DNA of 64,000 nucleotides from Promethearchaeota archaeon (GTDB lineage: Archaea > Asgardarchaeota > Lokiarchaeia > Sigyniarchaeales > SOKP01), in NCBI GenBank assembly GCA_048940445.1, contig JBHLON010000005.1:1-64000 (forward strand), given 5' to 3'. A program made the position numbers and the translations under genes. The number at the start of each line of letters is the position of its first letter. Position 1 is the first letter of the stretch. Below, piece after piece: positions 2,776 through 46,542 of this stretch. The notes beneath the pieces were generated by a model. The model had not been told where the DNA came from, ran no database searches, and worked only from the letters and a program-made list of their open reading frames with translations.

Positions 2776-4356
2776 TTAATCATCTTGAATATAAGCTTTT
2801 CCAGAGTTTAAGCATAATTCTGCTTTAGTTAGTTCTCTTCCAAGATAGTTTATATGATATAAATTATTCGTCAAATTAGACTCAATTACTTTTTTGCTAA
2901 TACTTTCTGCATCCTCCCCCAGTAAAGTATAAAGTAGTTTATCTTCGTTTGTATAGAATTGTAGATAAATTTTCCTAGAATAATGGTTAATATAAATTCT
3001 AAAATATCCCTTTTCATCCGGGTTATATTCTTGATTTATGCCCTCTAAAATGATTGCTTTCTCTTGATCAATAACAGGAGCTTTTTGAGATGTTTTCTTT
3101 TTTGCTTTGAAGATTTCTATACCTAAATTTATAGGTGGTGATTTTCTAAATTTTGCAAGGTAGTTTAATTTAATACTATCTTTTAATTCTCTAACTCCTC
3201 CCATTAATTTAGTACTATGTTCAACTGTGAAAACGATTCCTACATCTAATTCAATCGCAATGCTGGCTAAGAGTCCATTAATCCCCACAGAATCAATATC
3301 CATCAATTCTACAACGTTTGATACTCCAAAGAACATTGGAGCTTCAAATTTTTTATAATTATCTTCAGTAACTTTCTTTTTATAGATAAAGTAGGTTTCT
3401 AAAGATGGACAAATTCCGGGAGAAATGGGTGTTTCTAGTAGAGGATCCGCAATAATCTTACTAAACCCATAAGTTTGAAGTTCATGAGTTAATTTGAATA
3501 AGTTATTGACTCTTGTGGCTGGGTCTTTTGGAAAGTAAGCAGTTTTAATATTTGTTGGTAAGATCACTATCGGTATATCTTTTGGCAAATCAAGACAATC
3601 CTTATAATTCCCAGCATCAAGACTAAGAATCATATCCACCCCTTCCTCAACTGCTGCAAAAATCTCATTCTTTACCATTGAATCTACACTTAATAAAATA
3701 TCAAACTTTTTTCTGATAAGTCTAATGGCTTGTTTTATTCTGTTCGGATTTGGTTTATTTGCAACACATCCAATATCTACTATATCAGCACCAGACTCAA
3801 TATAATATTTTACTTTTTTAAGTATGTTCTTATCACTTTTTTCAGTACAATTGACGATTTCAGCAATCACAGGAGGGGGCAGATTACGACCTAATATAAG
3901 ATCTGATTTATCTTCATTAATATAAAAGGTGTGATTAGAAATATTATTTCTAGCAATTTTATATTGCTCTTTTACATATTCTCTAAACTCTTTCTCACCA
4001 GAGGCTTCAATTAGTCTATTAGCTGGAACCGTATTTGATAAATTAACAGTTTCTAAACTTTTCAATATTAAAGGTAAATCTGAAGCGAATTCGGGCCCTT
4101 TTCGTATTTTTATTCTGTACTTTTCTTCTAAGGGAGTAGTATCCCATTGTACAAATCCAGGAAGTAGAATTAAATCAAAATTAGTAATACTGATTTTATT
4201 AATAATTTCATGAACTAATTCTTCTGATATAAATGCTGAAACTGAAATTTGGGCTTTTAAAACTTCAATTTCATAATTTTTTATTGATTGGACAATTTTT
4301 TTGATGATTTGATAACTGTTTAAACCAGTAATTATTAATATTTTAATGTTTATCAC
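2776..4356 (-). CDS. Dihydropteroate synthase-like protein (archaeal methanopterin pathway) with C-terminal DUF4346-like domain
   Basis: Pterin-binding barrel (GADIVDIG, LSVDS, IIADPLL, FFGVSNVVELMDIDSVGIN); C-terminal DEKGYFRI...HINYLGREL. Confidence 0.8.
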   Translation of the reverse strand: MINIKILIITGLNSYQIIKKIVQSIKNYEIEVLKAQISVSAFISEELVHEIINKISITNFDLILLPGFVQWDTTPLEEKYRIKIRKGPEFASDLPLILKSLETVNLSNTVPANRLIEASGEKEFREYVKEQYKIARNNISNHTFYINEDKSDLILGRNLPPPVIAEIVNCTEKSDKNILKKVKYYIESGADIVDIGCVANKPNPNRIKQAIRLIRKKFDILLSVDSMVKNEIFAAVEEGVDMILSLDAGNYKDCLDLPKDIPIVILPTNIKTAYFPKDPATRVNNLFKLTHELQTYGFSKIIADPLLETPISPGICPSLETYFIYKKKVTEDNYKKFEAPMFFGVSNVVELMDIDSVGINGLLASIAIELDVGIVFTVEHSTKLMGGVRELKDSIKLNYLAKFRKSPPINLGIEIFKAKKKTSQKAPVIDQEKAIILEGINQEYNPDEKGYFRIYINHYSRKIYLQFYTNEDKLLYTLLGEDAESISKKVIESNLTNNLYHINYLGRELTKAELCLNSGKAYIQDD

Positions 4357-5465
4357 TCAATGAATTTCTTTTTATCAAATGGAATGTATATATCATCTAA
4401 TATTGATCCTGATGCCTCTTCTATCCTTAAATTATCTATTATCGGTTTAAATTTTCCTCCTAATAATCCATTAGCTATGAAAGCTGCACCTTGTGCTGCC
4501 TGTTTTGATAAGTGGCTATAGGATTTCATTAGTTTTACTGGAGCGACATCATTAAGATTTCGTATTATCTTATCTTTTAGATATTTTAAATCTGTGCCAC
4601 GACCAGCGATAAGAACTTCTTTTATCTTAGATTTTCTAGAGAAAGATGAAGATATTGCATAAACAGATTTCTTTACACTAGATAGATATGCATTAAGTGC
4701 AACATTAGTTTGCTCATCTCTTTCAGCTAACAACGAGATTTCTTTTAAACTTAAATCTTTATATCCCGCGATATAGGATACTCCACCCTTATAGATATTT
4801 TTTTTCTTAATATTTTTAATTAAATATGCCAATTCTCCATCAAGACTCCCGCATGCTCTGAATCCCATAATATTAGAACCTCCAATTCCATCAATAATTT
4901 GACCATTTTCTATGGCTAAAACAGCAGTAAATCCGTAACCAATTTCAACCATAATAAAGTTAGTACTTTCAGGGGGTACTTCAAATCGTTCCATCTGATC
5001 TCTAATCCCTGTAACTGCTGTACATAATTTATCTGCTGTACCCATATCAATTTTATTTATTTTCCTATACCGTGGAATAGTCGGTAGATGTTTGACTCCT
5101 GGAACGATTACTCCAGGAATTTTCTCAATTTTTATTAAACGTAATACCTCTCCTAATCCTATCAACTTATTTTTTTCTTCTTTATCAAATTTTAAAAGGG
5201 TAAAAAAAAGGTCTTTTTCAGTTAAGTCAGATACTTTTTTTAGAGGGAGCCCAAAACCACTCGGAGCAACCATTAAATCTATATTTTCTACAGATTTTAC
5301 CAATGATATTACTTTTTGAGGTTCTTTAATCAATTCCTTTGTGGGAATTGATGAGTCTAATATAATATCGTTACCTTCTAAACCAAAGAAATCCCAACTA
5401 AGTGTTCCTGGATCTACTCCTAAAGTTATAAGATTATTCTCATTTCTCATTCTATCAAAAATCAT
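4353..5465 (-). CDS. DUF1464 family protein (ASKHA/acetate-kinase-like fold)
   Basis: GVDPGTLSWD, APSGFGLP, NKIDMGTADK, GSLDGELAY, AAQGAAFIANGLLGG. Confidence 0.8.
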   Translation of the reverse strand: MIFDRMRNENNLITLGVDPGTLSWDFFGLEGNDIILDSSIPTKELIKEPQKVISLVKSVENIDLMVAPSGFGLPLKKVSDLTEKDLFFTLLKFDKEEKNKLIGLGEVLRLIKIEKIPGVIVPGVKHLPTIPRYRKINKIDMGTADKLCTAVTGIRDQMERFEVPPESTNFIMVEIGYGFTAVLAIENGQIIDGIGGSNIMGFRACGSLDGELAYLIKNIKKKNIYKGGVSYIAGYKDLSLKEISLLAERDEQTNVALNAYLSSVKKSVYAISSSFSRKSKIKEVLIAGRGTDLKYLKDKIIRNLNDVAPVKLMKSYSHLSKQAAQGAAFIANGLLGGKFKPIIDNLRIEEASGSILDDIYIPFDKKKFIE

Positions 5466-5612: not shown

Positions 5613-6335
5613 ATGTCGAATCTCATGACAACAAATTTTCAAAAGTTAGGAATTAAAGGAGGTTGCTTATATGAAATATTAGCGACAACTTTTTCTAAAA
5701 AAAATGAGGAGATAATACCAAATGCATCATGTATGGGAATTAGAATAAAGGACAACAACACTATACATATTATTCCCTATCCTGACACAAATACTTATAA
5801 AAATTTAAAAGAAAATGGTCTGATTTGTATCAATTTTGTGGAGAATGTCTATATATATGCGTTAGCAGCATTAAAGGGACCTTATCTTTCTGAGAAGTAT
5901 ATAGTTTTTCCAATGAAATATTACAATTACTATAATTTAAATTACAATTATGAATTAACTAGAAGAACAATCAAAATTCCATTTATCAAATCTGCTTGGG
6001 CAATATTAATTGGTGAAGTAATTAATGAAATGCATTTTACTAAACAAGATGATTTTGGAGAAATTAAACTAACCAATTTTATCTTAAACAACATTCTAAT
6101 TAATAAGTTTAAAGAATCACACAAATTATTTAATAGAGCTGAAAATTTAGTGTTAGAAACTATTATTATGGTTACCAGATTGAAAACAGCTTTTGAAACA
6201 AAAAAAGAGAATTTAGTGATGAAATACCAAAGAAAAATTGAAGAAACTATTAAGAGTATAAAAAGATTTGGAAAAAATCCAGATAACCTTAAGAGTGTGT
6301 ATCTTATAGAGGATTATCTCCAAAATTTAAAGTAA
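5613..6335 (+). CDS. DUF447 family protein
   Basis: YEILATT, PNASCMGI, TNTYKN, FNRAENLVLE; lies within the methanopterin gene cluster. Confidence 0.7.
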   Translation: MSNLMTTNFQKLGIKGGCLYEILATTFSKKNEEIIPNASCMGIRIKDNNTIHIIPYPDTNTYKNLKENGLICINFVENVYIYALAALKGPYLSEKYIVFPMKYYNYYNLNYNYELTRRTIKIPFIKSAWAILIGEVINEMHFTKQDDFGEIKLTNFILNNILINKFKESHKLFNRAENLVLETIIMVTRLKTAFETKKENLVMKYQRKIEETIKSIKRFGKNPDNLKSVYLIEDYLQNLK

Positions 6336-6340
6336 ATATT

Positions 6341-6727
6341 TTATTCTATTTTCTCAATGTACATAAGGGGATATTTTAAATCTTCAATCCATTCTACTTT
6401 TGCTAATATATTTACTGATTCATATTGAACCTCAATTTGAGCCTTAATTACTTTACCCGATATTTCATCATAGGCAAATTCATTTGATTTATCTCCAATG
6501 ATTTTATCTTTATCAAGATTTATTTTTACTCTTTTAACAAAAGGTTGACATGATATAGAAGCTTCTATCCCTCTTTCAATAGAATTGATTGTATCTTCAT
6601 TTGAAGATATAGGAATTCCACATAGAATATGATAGAGTGCTCCAAGCTTTATTCCTATTTCAAAACAAGCCCTCTCTCTTTCAGAAAGATCTATAGGAAA
6701 AAATTTATTATAATTATTTGTTGACAT
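6341..6727 (-). CDS. mptD: Archaeal dihydroneopterin aldolase
   Basis: ERACFEIGIKLGALYH, SISCQPFV, YPLMYI. Confidence 0.85.
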   Translation of the reverse strand: MSTNNYNKFFPIDLSERERACFEIGIKLGALYHILCGIPISSNEDTINSIERGIEASISCQPFVKRVKINLDKDKIIGDKSNEFAYDEISGKVIKAQIEVQYESVNILAKVEWIEDLKYPLMYIEKIE

Positions 6728-8429: not shown

Positions 8430-9845
8430 GTGAAAAATTTGAGTGACCTAGAGGGTTTAACAAGGAATTTAATAAAAAAAGGAGATTCAGATGGAAAAAT
8501 TCTTCAACGTTTAGTCCAAGAATATTTTGATTTTAAAGAAATAGAGAAAGAATCTGCACTAAGGAATGCAAAAGCGATCCTAGAAGAATGCAAAAAAAGT
8601 GATTTAAAATCTGTATCTAATAGATTCATAAAAAATTTATTGAAAGTAAATAATTCAGGAGTTACCGTTGGTACTCAAGGTGTTGGTTGTCGAGGAGCAG
8701 GAGATTTTTTTGTTCATAAATTGATTGCAGAATTATCAGAAACAAAAGCTAAAGCATATTTATCTCCTAAATCTCTAGATGACGCTGGAGCAGTAAGGAT
8801 TTCTGATGTTGAAGATTTAAAAACCAATGAAGATCTCATAATCGTATCTAAGATGGAAGGTATTCATAGCCGCTTGAGTGATTTTCCATTTTTGTGTGGC
8901 TTTCATGTAATTTTATGCAGTAGGTTTGCATAAAGCGTATCGAGGGCTGCACTTAGGGATTTATACGTTAAGGGTTCTATTCCTATTTCTATAATGGTTG
9001 ATGCTCACCTAGGAGATGATGCTGATGTTGGAAAACTATTCGATTTTATGGCAGGTGTGTCAGCAATCTCAGAGTTAGCTCAAGTTCCTATAACGGCGGG
9101 GTCAACCTTAAGAATTGGAGGAGATATGGTTATCGGAGAGAGGTTCGTTGGAGGTCTTGCCGCAATTGGGATAGCATCGAAAAAACTCCTTGCTAGAAGG
9201 CAAATTCAACCTGGTGATAAAATTCTCATGACTGAAGGAGCAGGAGGTGGTACTATCACTACTACAGCAATTTATTCGGGAAATCATGAGATAATAAAAG
9301 AAACTTTAAACATTAAGTTTTTAGAAGCTTCAAAAATCATTTTAAATTCGCCCTATCTTTCTAAAATTCGAGCGATGTGTGATGTCACTAACGGGGGTTT
9401 AAGAGGAGATCTTTACGAAATAAATTACGAAGCTGGATGCGGAGTAACGATCTATGAAGAAAAAGTAAGAAGTTTAGTAAACAAAAATGTATTATCCTTA
9501 TTAGACTCAGTACATGTTGATTATTTAGGAGTATCATTAGATGCATTATTGATATATTGTTCCCAGGAAGTCGTTGGTGATATCATTCTAGATCTCGAAA
9601 AAAATCACATTAAATGTGCCGAGATTGGATACGTGGATGATTCAAAAACAGTTTCAATGATTTCTCAAGATGAAAAACAAAACATTTTACCACGTTTTAG
9701 GGAATCAGCTTATACAAAAATAAAGCAAGAAGTAGGTGAAGAAACTCCTAAGAATATAGAACAAATGGAAATAAGATTGAAAGAAGCAGCAAATGAAGCT
9801 TTTGAAAAGCGAAACAAAATAATTGAATATTTGTCTCATAATTAG
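8430..9845 (+). CDS. AIR synthase-related protein (PurM/HypE/SelD superfamily), spliced as join(8430..8910,8941..9845), ~461 aa
   Basis: The two ORF-track pieces are the N- and C-halves of one family (GVGCRGAGDF, LDDAG, GIHSRLSDFPFL; DAHLGDDADV, GSTLRIGGD, DVTNGG). Removing 8911-8940 gives GFHVTRAALRDLYVKG. Confidence 0.88.
8911..8940 (+). other. 30-nt BHB intron in an mRNA (AIR synthase-related gene)
   Basis: Outer stem GGCUUUC/GAGGGCU, central helix AUGU/GCGU, bulges AA|U and AU|C, inner stem UUUAUGCA/UGCAUAAA; contains an in-frame TAA. Confidence 0.88.
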
Positions 9846-9848
9846 CAA

Positions 9849-10667
9849 TCATGTAAGTACTTCATTAAGGGAACCAGACCGAAATCCTTCTAGATCAATT
9901 GTAATATAACAAAAACCTAATTCTCTAAATTTAGTTTTAATTTTATTTATATTTTTTTTATTTAAGATTTGTATTAGGTCTTCTTGTAAAAGCTCAATAC
10001 GTGCAAGTTTCTCTTCATGATATCTGACTCGTAACTGCTTCAAATTAAAATTACTTCTTAAAAATCTTTCACCTTCTCTTATCATGGTCAGTTTTTTTTC
10101 GTCTATTGGTTGATTATAAGGAATACGTGATGAAAAGCACGCCATAGAAGGTTTTCCTTTAACTTCTAAGTTATAAAATTCTGCAATTTTTCTTATATCT
10201 TTTTTTGTTAGATTAAAATCAATATAAGGTGTAGCGATATCTAATTCATTTAAAGCTTGCATTCCTGGTCTATAATCAGAGAGATCATCTTGATTTGATC
10301 CATCAAGAATTACATCAAAATTCTTTTCATTTTTAATTTTGATAATGTCCCTATATAAGCCGGTTTTACAGATATAGCATCTATTATGAGGATTTTTCTT
10401 AAATTCTTCATTTTCAAGTGGATTTCTTTTAATTATGAGGTGAGGTATATCATATGTTTTTGCAAATTTACTTGCATCTTGAATCTCTTCATCAGGATAA
10501 AGGATTGATTTTTCTGTGACAAGAAGTGTATCCTTTGCATGTTTTTTTGATAGAAATGCAAGAAGACTACTATCAACTCCACCAGAAAACGCAACAATTA
10601 CTTTTTTATCAGTTAAATATGATATAAGTTTTTCTGCTTTAGATTGTAGATTAAATGATAATTTCAT
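9849..10667 (-). CDS. larE: ATP-dependent sacrificial sulfur transferase LarE family (PP-loop)
   Basis: AFSGGVDS, RCYICK, DYRPG, ACFSSRIPY, LRVRYH, GFRSGSLN. Confidence 0.88.
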   Translation of the reverse strand: MKLSFNLQSKAEKLISYLTDKKVIVAFSGGVDSSLLAFLSKKHAKDTLLVTEKSILYPDEEIQDASKFAKTYDIPHLIIKRNPLENEEFKKNPHNRCYICKTGLYRDIIKIKNEKNFDVILDGSNQDDLSDYRPGMQALNELDIATPYIDFNLTKKDIRKIAEFYNLEVKGKPSMACFSSRIPYNQPIDEKKLTMIREGERFLRSNFNLKQLRVRYHEEKLARIELLQEDLIQILNKKNINKIKTKFRELGFCYITIDLEGFRSGSLNEVLT

Positions 10668-12934: not shown

Positions 12935-14362
12935 ATGAAAAATAATCCCAATAAAGCTCAAGAAATTAAGAAACGGAGAAAATTTGGAATACATCTAACC
13001 TCAAAAGAAATTTTTCATAAATATATTTATCCAGAAATAAAATTAGATCTAAATGATTATATCTGGCTTGACTCTTACGCTGGGGAAGGTAATTTGATTT
13101 TACCAATCTTGGAATACATAGATCCGAGTAAACGGGAAGAATTCTTTTTAAATCATCTATTTCTTTTTGATGTTCAAGAGGATATGGTTGAAAAAAGTAT
13201 AAAAAATGCTCAATTGTATGGAATATCAGAAGAAGTTGCGAAATCTAATATATTTATTCGAGACAATTTAGAGAGCTTTCCTCAATTTCTTAAAGAAAAG
13301 GAGTTTCCAATTTATCATATCACTAATCCCCCCTACTTATATTTAGGATATATTAAAAAGCACCTTGAAACGCAACAATATCTTAAATACTTTAAAGATA
13401 AAAATAACGGTTATCAAGATTTATATCAAATTGCTATGATAAATGATTTAAGAAATGGAATTGAAAATTTAATTTATATTATCCCTTCAAATTTTCTATT
13501 CGGAGCCTCAGTATCCAACAAATTTCGATTAGATTTCTTAAAAAACTATAAAATAAATAAAATGATTATTTTTGAGATTAAAATCTTTGAATTTACAGGA
13601 TCTCATATATGTATTGGCTTTTTTAAGAAAAAAATTGAATCTAAAATAGAAAATGTAAAATTTTCAGGTATCAAGATCAAGAAAGGAAATCAAATTATTC
13701 AAAAAAATTACATGTTAAAGGCTAATCATAAATTTAGAGCAGGATATGAATTCGATGAATTTTTAAAAAAGTATTGTGCCATTTATCCCTTAAAAGTAGA
13801 GTATTATTTATCACAAAAGATGGTTTCTCAAAATTTAGGAAATTATAAAGTTAAAGTAATTGATGCTAATCAATATAAAAATAATGAATATAAAAAACAA
13901 TATTTAGAAATTAACGAAAAATTGAAACATAAATTAGAATCAAATATATTGTATGTAAGAACTGTCGATACTGGTTCTCAAAACGGAAGAGCCGGATTAG
14001 AAATTATTTATGATGACTTTCATGTTCAGGGAATATATGTCTCTAAAAAGCCTTATCGAACTCATCCAATCCAAATATTCTTCGATCCACAACTACCAAA
14101 AGATGATCTAATTTTACTAAAAGACTATTTCAATTATATATTAGAACATTATAGAAACTTTTTAGATAGTGAATTTCTAACAACTTATAAATATTCAAAT
14201 GCGGATTATACTAGAAAATACTTAGGTTTAAATCAAACAAGAAGACTAATTGAAACCTTTCCTTTTAAAAAATTAACTGAATCTGATAAGCAGAATCTTA
14301 ACAAGTTAATAAAAGCAGACTTATTTGAAGACATTGTGCAATTATTAGATGATTTTAAATAA
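12935..14362 (+). CDS. Putative N6-adenine DNA methyltransferase
   Basis: DSYAGEGNL (motif I), ITNPPY (motif IV), YIIPSNFL. Confidence 0.7.
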   Translation: MKNNPNKAQEIKKRRKFGIHLTSKEIFHKYIYPEIKLDLNDYIWLDSYAGEGNLILPILEYIDPSKREEFFLNHLFLFDVQEDMVEKSIKNAQLYGISEEVAKSNIFIRDNLESFPQFLKEKEFPIYHITNPPYLYLGYIKKHLETQQYLKYFKDKNNGYQDLYQIAMINDLRNGIENLIYIIPSNFLFGASVSNKFRLDFLKNYKINKMIIFEIKIFEFTGSHICIGFFKKKIESKIENVKFSGIKIKKGNQIIQKNYMLKANHKFRAGYEFDEFLKKYCAIYPLKVEYYLSQKMVSQNLGNYKVKVIDANQYKNNEYKKQYLEINEKLKHKLESNILYVRTVDTGSQNGRAGLEIIYDDFHVQGIYVSKKPYRTHPIQIFFDPQLPKDDLILLKDYFNYILEHYRNFLDSEFLTTYKYSNADYTRKYLGLNQTRRLIETFPFKKLTESDKQNLNKLIKADLFEDIVQLLDDFK

Positions 14363-45977: not shown

Positions 45978-46542
45978 TTGAGTACTAAAGGAAGATTGGT
46001 TGTAAAGGCTCTTGTGACTGGTGGGAGAGTTATAATTTAACATTCGTTTAGAATAAAACCCCGAATGCGTCAGGAGGGCCACCCATAGGTCCAGCTGTAG
46101 GTCCAACAGGCATAAAATTAAAATCTTTTCGATTTTTTGTGCAAATATAAAAGATGTCGTTGATGCGGTCAATGAAAAAACGATGATCTTCAAGGGCCTA
46201 ACAGTTCCGGTTAGGATTGAATGTGATCCTGAGACTAAACAATTTGAAATTTTTGTTGAAACTCCAAGTACTGCCTCTCTTCTCCTGAAGGAACTGGGCG
46301 TTGAGAAAGGGATTACTTCAGCTTCAGAATCAAAGATTGGTAATCTAACATTGGAACAGGTAATGGCTGTTGCAACCGCTAAGAAAGAGAAATTTTTGGA
46401 CAAAACTTATAGAACTGCTGTGAAAACTGTATTAGGTACAGCGTTATCAATAGGAGCTACCGTTGAAGGAGAAGATCCACGAGTAATTCAAAAAAAAATT
46501 GAAAATGGGGAATTTGATGATAGAATTAAGGGTGAGATGTAA
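45978..46542 (+). CDS. rpl11: 50S ribosomal protein uL11, spliced as join(45978..46027,46066..46115,46145..46542), 165 aa
   Basis: GGTGA SD then TTG. Spliced product [56 protein letters not shown]... has the uL11 N-terminus; first gene of the L11-L1-L10-L12 cluster. Confidence 0.93.
46028..46065 (+). other. rpl11 intron 1 (38 nt, BHB/BHL-like)
   Basis: Helix UGGG/CCCG, cuts AG|A and AA|U, inner stem GUUAUAAUUUAA/UUAGAAUAAAAC, outer UGAC/GUCA; in-frame TAA at 46038-46040. Confidence 0.88.
46116..46144 (+). other. rpl11 intron 2 (29 nt, BHB-like)
   Basis: Helix GCAU/GUGC, cuts AA|A and AA|A, inner stem AAAAUC/GAUUUU; removal gives GINIKDVV. Confidence 0.88.

What the first reader, a model, noticed from the sequence alone, without database searches (positions are those of the whole stretch)
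8891..8950. Canonical BHB intron in the mRNA of an AIR-synthase-related gene
Seen: what looks like two genes is one gene with a 30-nt insert (8911-8940) forming a complete BHB: 7-bp exon-exon stem GGCUUUC/GAGGGCU, helix AUGU/GCGU, two 3-nt bulges and an 8-bp perfect inner stem. The insert carries an in-frame TAA. EndA-rule splicing builds an ACG codon from both exons and gives GFHVTRAALRD, the motif I recall for this family. A codon-aligned deletion would give GFHVSR instead, so the predicted cut position is independently supported. Inference: mRNA splicing here extends beyond translation genes.
Basis: partly seen in the sequence, partly recalled or inferred. Interest (0 to 1): 0.93.

Follow-up and report, generated by a model that had tools for sequence, protein, structure and literature searches.

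The report
Mobile tRNA-type intron in Asgard gene
A 30-base insert that breaks an enzyme gene of a Lokiarchaeon (Asgard archaeon) has the exact RNA shape cut by the tRNA-splicing enzymes, so the message is very probably spliced, and related genomes show the insert spreading between species beside a probable DNA-cutting enzyme gene.

Summary
Observation confirmed. Window 8911-8940 is a 30-nt canonical bulge-helix-bulge (BHB) insert with an in-frame TAA in a PurM/AIR-synthase-family gene of a Promethearchaeota (Loki) genome; it is the strongest such site genome-wide. Only the EndA-rule cut restores the family motif HVTRA. The insert sits at the identical site in 28 of 117 family genomes; 46 distinct versions (29-30 nt) keep the 4-bp helix and a compensated inner stem. 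Both exons are under purifying selection; EndA (two subunits) and RtcB are present. Splicing itself is inferred: no RNA evidence was found. New here: the intron is mobile. Intron alleles group together near the site but not in exon 2 (AU p=1e-4); this genome's gene is a mosaic; relatives show the arriving cassette: host 5' remnant, Zn-finger/PD-(D/E)xK-like nuclease gene, replacement promoter+exon 1+intron. The nuclease lies upstream of 13 intron alleles and 0 of 72 intronless ones; this genome lacks it. Papers I could search report a coding-sequence BHB intron only for cbf5. The scan found this intron and similar nuclease-intron cassettes before on other DNA.

The parts
8430..8910 (+). Exon 1 of a PurM/AIR-synthase-related gene (GTG start at 8430; many relatives start at the TTG/ATG three codons later)
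   Evidence: AIRS N-domain spans the junction in intronless homologue P0024
8894..8904 (+). 5' arm of the exon-exon stem (core 8898-8904)
   Evidence: 96.8% of cells paired in 14 species
8905..8908 (+). 5' strand of the 4-bp central helix
   Evidence: paired in nearly all 46 distinct introns
8909..8911 (+). 5' 3-nt bulge; predicted cut between 8910 and 8911
   Evidence: EndA rule (established knowledge)
8911..8940 (+). 30-nt BHB intron: inner stem 8912-8920/8926-8934, loop 8921-8925, in-frame TAA 8931-8933, 3' helix strand 8935-8938
8939..8941 (+). 3' 3-nt bulge; predicted cut between 8940 and 8941
   Evidence: EndA rule
8941..9845 (+). Exon 2 (3' arm of exon stem 8942-8952; AIRS_C domain). 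The first ATG in it (8994) lies past the family signature, so it is not a separate gene
8958..8984 (+). D-x4-G-x-x-P ATP-binding signature of the PurM superfamily; also the zone (+17 to +43 from the insertion point) where host remnants end and donor tracts switch to host sequence in relatives: predicted nuclease cut zone
   Evidence: alignment to HypE; signature from established knowledge; cut site is inference
8865..9720 (+). Approximate imported tract (intron plus most of exon 2) that matches the G023 lineage (mostly 83-89%) while flanks and far exon 1 match G017/G019
   Evidence: limits good to about 25 codons
6727..7740 (-). beta-RFAP synthase (mptG), upstream neighbour; with DHNA 6341-6727, DUF447 5613-6335, DUF1464 4353-5465 and DHPS-like 2776-4356 a methanopterin cluster
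9849..10667 (-). larE-like sulfur transferase, convergent downstream neighbour

Best explanation
A genuine pre-mRNA intron of the archaeal BHB class. The transcript folds exon stem / 4-bp helix / two 3-nt bulges / inner hairpin; the two-subunit EndA cuts after the second base of each bulge, RtcB joins the exons and builds the Thr codon, giving the 461-aa PurM-fold enzyme; unspliced RNA stops at the TAA and lacks the ATP-binding signature. Shown: structure, conservation, compensation, reading frame, selection, presence of enzymes. Inferred: the splicing reaction. Second layer (about 0.65): the ORF-less intron spreads by collaborative homing. A free-standing Zn-finger/PD-(D/E)xK-like nuclease encoded just upstream of the donor allele cuts intronless alleles near the D-L-Y codons about 20 nt downstream of the insertion point; the intron and changed flanking codons protect the donor. 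Repair from the donor usually pairs in exon 1 and copies only intron plus flanks (the state of this genome, which has no close nuclease gene); less often the left arm is joined non-homologously, bringing nuclease, cargo genes and a new promoter+exon 1 and leaving the host's 5' half stranded upstream.
For: Same-site insert in 28 of 117 family genomes with the gene, 6 of 13 genera. 14-species alignment: 95% of cells paired, 5 of 9 inner pairs with double changes, helix 100%, slid controls 30-53%; 46 distinct introns keep the pairing while the loop varies freely, 45 of 46 carry an in-frame stop, 8 are 29 nt and shift the frame, all splice to HVTRA. pN 0.17 versus pS 0.59-0.71 in both exons; this genome versus G023 in exon 2 pN 0.07, pS 0.50. 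EndA catalytic and structural paralogues and RtcB in the genome. Mobility: label needs 2 changes on the tree of the segment around the site, 12 on exon 2; one clade rejected for exon 2 (p-AU 1e-4), not for the near segment (0.79); introns 29/30 identical in genes only 71% identical; donor-to-host switch at +22 to +43 in about seven independent alleles. Cassette seen whole in L204 and L165, decayed in L119, L069, L198, L201, L263; five remnants that reach the site end at 0 to +22. Nuclease gene upstream of 13 distinct intron alleles, 0 of 72 intronless; every nuclease-selected contig that reaches the junction has the intron (L204, L217, L250, L251/252, L255). Its C-domain has conserved E, D, D-F-T, K, Y-Q residues and best matches restriction-type nucleases (VIA Z 5-6.6: AF1548, Can2, R.BspD6I, EcoO109I).
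Against: No junction read, spliced contig or peptide was found. The central helix has two G-U pairs. Nuclease activity and target are untested; its fold match is modest (Z below 8) with no Pfam or Foldseek hit. Intron and intronless sets were sampled differently (metagenome contigs versus genome representatives) and kin are not independent. More distant paralogues of the nuclease sit beside genes with no visible intron, including one intronless thiolase allele. The RNA stem itself constrains about 11 nt each side, which inflates similarity near the site.
Confidence: 0.9

Rival explanations
1. Pseudogene: an insertion with a stop has inactivated the gene.
For: Most relatives are intronless, and the insert carries a stop.
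Against: Single copy in the genome; no other lesion in carriers; purifying selection in both exons; compensated RNA structure in 46 versions.
Confidence: 0.02
2. Stop read-through or selenocysteine recoding gives a protein with a 10-aa insertion.
For: Most carriers have TGA; the family is related to SelD; the 30-nt form keeps the frame.
Against: This genome has TAA; one allele has its stop elsewhere and one has two stops; 8 of 46 versions are 29 nt and shift the frame; the inserted residues are not conserved while base pairs are.
Confidence: 0.02
3. Naturally split gene making two subunits.
For: Gene callers report two ORFs (167 and 283 aa).
Against: The second ORF starts at 8994, past the D-x4-G-x-x-P signature, which would go untranslated yet stays conserved; the break falls inside the AIRS N-domain.
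Confidence: 0.02
4. The intron is real and spliced, but moves without a dedicated nuclease: it is old and repeatedly lost, or rides on an integrative element or ordinary homologous gene transfer, with the nuclease as mere cargo.
For: Most carriers lack the nuclease; other cargo (CBASS, ParE, glmS-like, TBP) occurs in the same slot; a 60% homologue lies elsewhere beside an integrase-like ORF (my reading of the ORF).
Against: Vertical descent with loss cannot give segment-specific trees or stranded host 5' halves; remnant ends vary (0 to +22) and no integrase or att repeat was found, unlike site-specific integration; close nuclease homologues nearly always abut the intron allele.
Confidence: 0.3

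Closest known systems
cbf5 pre-mRNA BHB intron of Desulfurococcales and Sulfolobales (PMC2738675; stated as the only additional BHB intron in an mRNA in PMC7714728)
   Same: Short BHB insert in a coding sequence, EndA-type cut, patchy presence at one conserved site
   Different: Different gene (metabolic PurM-fold enzyme), different phylum (Asgard); cbf5 here is intact without intron; cbf5 intron was read as one gain plus losses, this one shows repeated lateral gain; cbf5 splicing is shown by experiment, this is not
Collaborative homing in phages: free-standing endonuclease beside an ORF-less group I intron (T3/T7-like phages, a cyanophage, ICP1 terminase; PMC2988022, PMC10448857)
   Same: Nuclease gene outside and next to an ORF-less intron, target in the most conserved codons, co-conversion of flanking exon
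   Different: Host is a cellular archaeal chromosome; intron is a 30-nt protein-spliced BHB, not a ribozyme; the cassette carries a replacement promoter and 5' half and can leave a stranded host 5' half; nuclease is a new Zn-finger-repeat PD-(D/E)xK-like family, untested
Hairpin introns of Thermoproteales 16S rRNA co-converted by a neighbouring LAGLIDADG intron (Pog.S1205/S1213; PMC4496867)
   Same: Short ORF-less BHB hairpin intron moved by a nearby nuclease
   Different: rRNA, and the nuclease is encoded inside another intron
Asgard tRNA introns (bioRxiv 10.64898/2026.10.13.758758)
   Same: Same BHB chemistry, repeated gains, two-subunit EndA in Asgard
   Different: That study covers tRNA genes only and found no general route of intron arrival; here a route is visible for an mRNA intron

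Membership tests
Archaeal BHB intron (EndA/RtcB) | 4-bp central helix flanked by two 3-nt bulges on opposite strands | tested here: met
Archaeal BHB intron (EndA/RtcB) | Flanking exon helix and intron helix | tested here: met
   11 bp and 9 bp; compensatory changes in 5 of 9 inner pairs
Archaeal BHB intron (EndA/RtcB) | Cut after the second base of each bulge restores the uninterrupted host sequence | tested here: met
Archaeal BHB intron (EndA/RtcB) | Host encodes EndA and RtcB | tested here: met
Archaeal BHB intron (EndA/RtcB) | Spliced RNA or excised circle detected | not testable with these tools
   no reads available; search for a spliced-allele protein found none
Collaborative homing (free-standing endonuclease plus ORF-less intron) | Free-standing nuclease gene adjacent to the intron allele and absent from intronless alleles | tested here: met
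   in relatives: 13 intron alleles versus 0 of 72 intronless; absent from this genome
Collaborative homing (free-standing endonuclease plus ORF-less intron) | Lateral spread with co-conversion of flanking exon | tested here: met
Collaborative homing (free-standing endonuclease plus ORF-less intron) | The protein has a nuclease fold and active site | tested here: inconclusive
   motif conservation and VIA Z 5-6.6 to PD-(D/E)xK enzymes; no Pfam or Foldseek hit
Collaborative homing (free-standing endonuclease plus ORF-less intron) | Cleaves the intronless site, not the intron-bearing site | not testable with these tools
   needs an in vitro assay
Group I / group II introns | Ribozyme core of hundreds of bases | tested here: not met
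   30 nt; no Rfam match
PurM/AIR-synthase superfamily (host gene) | AIRS and AIRS_C domains with D-x4-G-x-x-P signature | tested here: met
   below the cut-off of every named equivalog (ThiL, HypE, SelD, PurL), so function unassigned

The most novel reading that the evidence does not exclude
Lokiarchaeia carry a class of selfish cassettes in which a free-standing Zn-finger PD-(D/E)xK nuclease and a 29-30-nt BHB micro-intron cooperate to seed tRNA-type introns into ordinary protein genes, making EndA/RtcB a routine mRNA-splicing system in the closest prokaryotic relatives of eukaryotes; this window shows the end state, an orphaned intron.
Probability: 0.6. Interest if true: 0.88.

Novelty: new variant of a known kind. 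Interest (0 to 1): 0.78.

Why it matters
Archaeal mRNA splicing is documented for essentially one coding gene. A conserved, compensated intron in a metabolic gene of an Asgard lineage says the tRNA-splicing machinery also processes mRNA there, that Asgard gene annotation misses full-length proteins, and that introns in protein genes existed in the eukaryote sister group by a route other than group II introns. The cassette offers a testable answer to a question a 2026 preprint left open for Asgard tRNA introns, namely how intron DNA enters a gene, and a candidate new site-specific nuclease family with a predicted target.

Tried and rejected
Structure-only genome census of further mRNA introns: too noisy, no length excess, only this site and fwdA stand out. 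Spliced-transcript search through full-length proteins: none matches an intron allele in both exons; apparent 10-aa insertion proteins P0017/P0124, the first checked and due to TGA read as Trp. Viral contigs: three pattern matches are unrelated sequence, no cassette. A longer, nuclease-encoding version of the intron: not seen among 36 metagenome matches, all 29-30 nt. Integrase or att repeat beside the cassette: not found in the regions fetched. Foldseek on the whole nuclease model, PDB sequence search, Atlas (best 0.80, lead only) and a single-sequence fold of the domain (pLDDT 39) were uninformative. Sigma-70 promoter/terminator scan: chance level. Literature searches found no report of coding-sequence introns in Asgard archaea; the library is incomplete.

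Full report
Observation. The minimum-energy fold is the full BHB: 11-bp exon stem, 4-bp helix, two 3-nt bulges, 9-bp inner stem (z -4.1). Removing 8911-8940 joins two ORFs into one 461-aa frame; among all frame-keeping deletions of 27-33 nt only the EndA-rule cut yields HVTRA. A shuffled insert gives an equal structure in 8.5e-5 of trials and the site ranks first in a genome-wide scan.

Host and gene. Relatives are Promethearchaeota (Lokiarchaeia) MAGs. The gene is single copy, of the PurM/AIR-synthase superfamily, below the cut-off of any named member, between a methanopterin cluster and larE. The insert lies six codons before the D-x4-G-x-x-P ATP-binding signature (alignment to HypE; signature from my own knowledge). 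The downstream ORF starts past that signature, so a split-gene reading fails.

Comparative test. Of 117 family genomes with the gene, 28 in 6 genera carry an insert at exactly this site; the others are contiguous (76 distinct contexts, Thr 69, Ala 6, Ser 1). In 14 species the structure is 95% paired with double changes in 5 of 9 inner pairs, against 30-53% for slid controls. Adding metagenome contigs gives 46 distinct introns, 38 of 30 nt and 8 of 29 nt; helix and inner stem are kept, loop and first base vary, 45 have an in-frame stop, all splice to HVTRA. The frame-shifting 29-nt forms and the TAA/TGA variation exclude read-through or selenocysteine. Both exons are under purifying selection, which excludes a pseudogene. 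Junction codons are frozen in carriers and free in intronless alleles (Thr codon identity 1.0 versus 0.31). The genome encodes two EndA paralogues, one with the Tyr/His/Lys residues and one lacking the His (my reading of the sequences), and RtcB; cbf5 is intact. No RNA evidence was obtainable, so splicing stays an inference, at about 0.92.

Mobility. On the protein tree carriers are scattered (at least 7 changes forced). By segment, the label needs 2 changes around the site and 12 in exon 2; a carrier clade is rejected for exon 2 (p-AU 1e-4) but not near the site (0.79). Nine alleles share promoter, exon 1 and intron yet have exon 2 from different hosts; the switch from donor to host sequence falls at +22 to +43. 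This genome is itself a mosaic: mptG, larE and far exon 1 are nearest G017/G019 (82-87%), the intron region and most of exon 2 nearest G023 (83%, ten points above others).

The cassette. L204 (JAHLWH010000070.1) reads mptG, host 5' half ending 17 nt past the intronless site, a 581-aa ORF, new promoter + exon 1 + intron, exon 2. L165 is alike; L119, L069, L198, L178, L201, L263 show decayed or cargo-laden forms, one with a CBASS system. Remnants that reach the site end at 0, +17, +17, about +21 and +22. The ORF has N-terminal Zn-finger-like repeats and a C-terminal domain with conserved acidic, Lys and Tyr-Gln residues whose model aligns best, though modestly, to PD-(D/E)xK nucleases. It lies upstream of 13 distinct intron alleles (10 found by the intron pattern, blind to the nuclease) and none of 72 intronless alleles; nuclease-selected contigs that reach the junction all have the intron. 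This genome has no close copy, as expected if most homing events pair in exon 1 and copy only the intron. A 36-38% paralogue sits directly upstream of a thiolase gene that has one 30-nt insert in G016, three inserts in G051 and none in G130, so the link recurs but is not absolute. I put nuclease-driven homing at about 0.65; sampling is uneven and no cleavage is tested.

Comparison. It works like the cbf5 intron (PMC2738675; the only coding-sequence case per PMC7714728) and moves like phage collaborative homing (PMC2988022, PMC10448857) or co-converted 16S hairpin introns (PMC4496867). A recent preprint on Asgard tRNA introns treats no mRNA and leaves the route of arrival open. I found no paper on coding-sequence introns in Asgard. 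Earlier notes of this scan report the same intron in other genomes and nuclease-intron cassettes at other genes; I reached the cassette reading, before seeing them, and they are not counted as support.

Verdict. Real feature; new variant of a known kind; interest 0.78.

Noticed in passing
window 45978-46542: rpl11 is broken by two short inserts; removing about 38 nt and 29 nt gives one open frame with the normal uL11 N-terminus (exact cut sites not fixed here).
   Followed up: partly
G000 C47:64002-64031 (+): fwdA-like gene with a 30-nt canonical BHB insert carrying an in-frame TGA; second-ranked site genome-wide.
   Followed up: partly
L237 (G016) and L238 (G051), thiolase gene downstream of a nuclease paralogue: Thiolase with one (G016) or three (G051) short hairpin inserts; intronless in G130 and in this genome (C36).
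   Followed up: partly
G000 C94:57156-59447 (+): 763-aa ORF with a weak match (E 2e-4) to the nuclease-domain profile, two genes upstream of rtcB.
   Followed up: no
L201:4615-15971: CBASS-like genes (SAVED, nucleotidyltransferase-like, ThiF, JAB) and the nuclease lie between a 5' remnant and a second 5' half of the same gene: the site acts as a defence-island slot.
   Followed up: no
whole genome: ARAGORN finds only 13 tRNA genes in a 93% complete genome, many with introns, which suggests further multi-intron tRNAs are missed.
   Followed up: no
window 12935-14362 (+): N-6 DNA methylase-like gene downstream of the locus.
   Followed up: no
public protein collection, P0017 and P0124: Gene callers switch to TGA=Trp to read through this intron, creating false 10-aa insertion proteins (for P0017).
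   Followed up: partly
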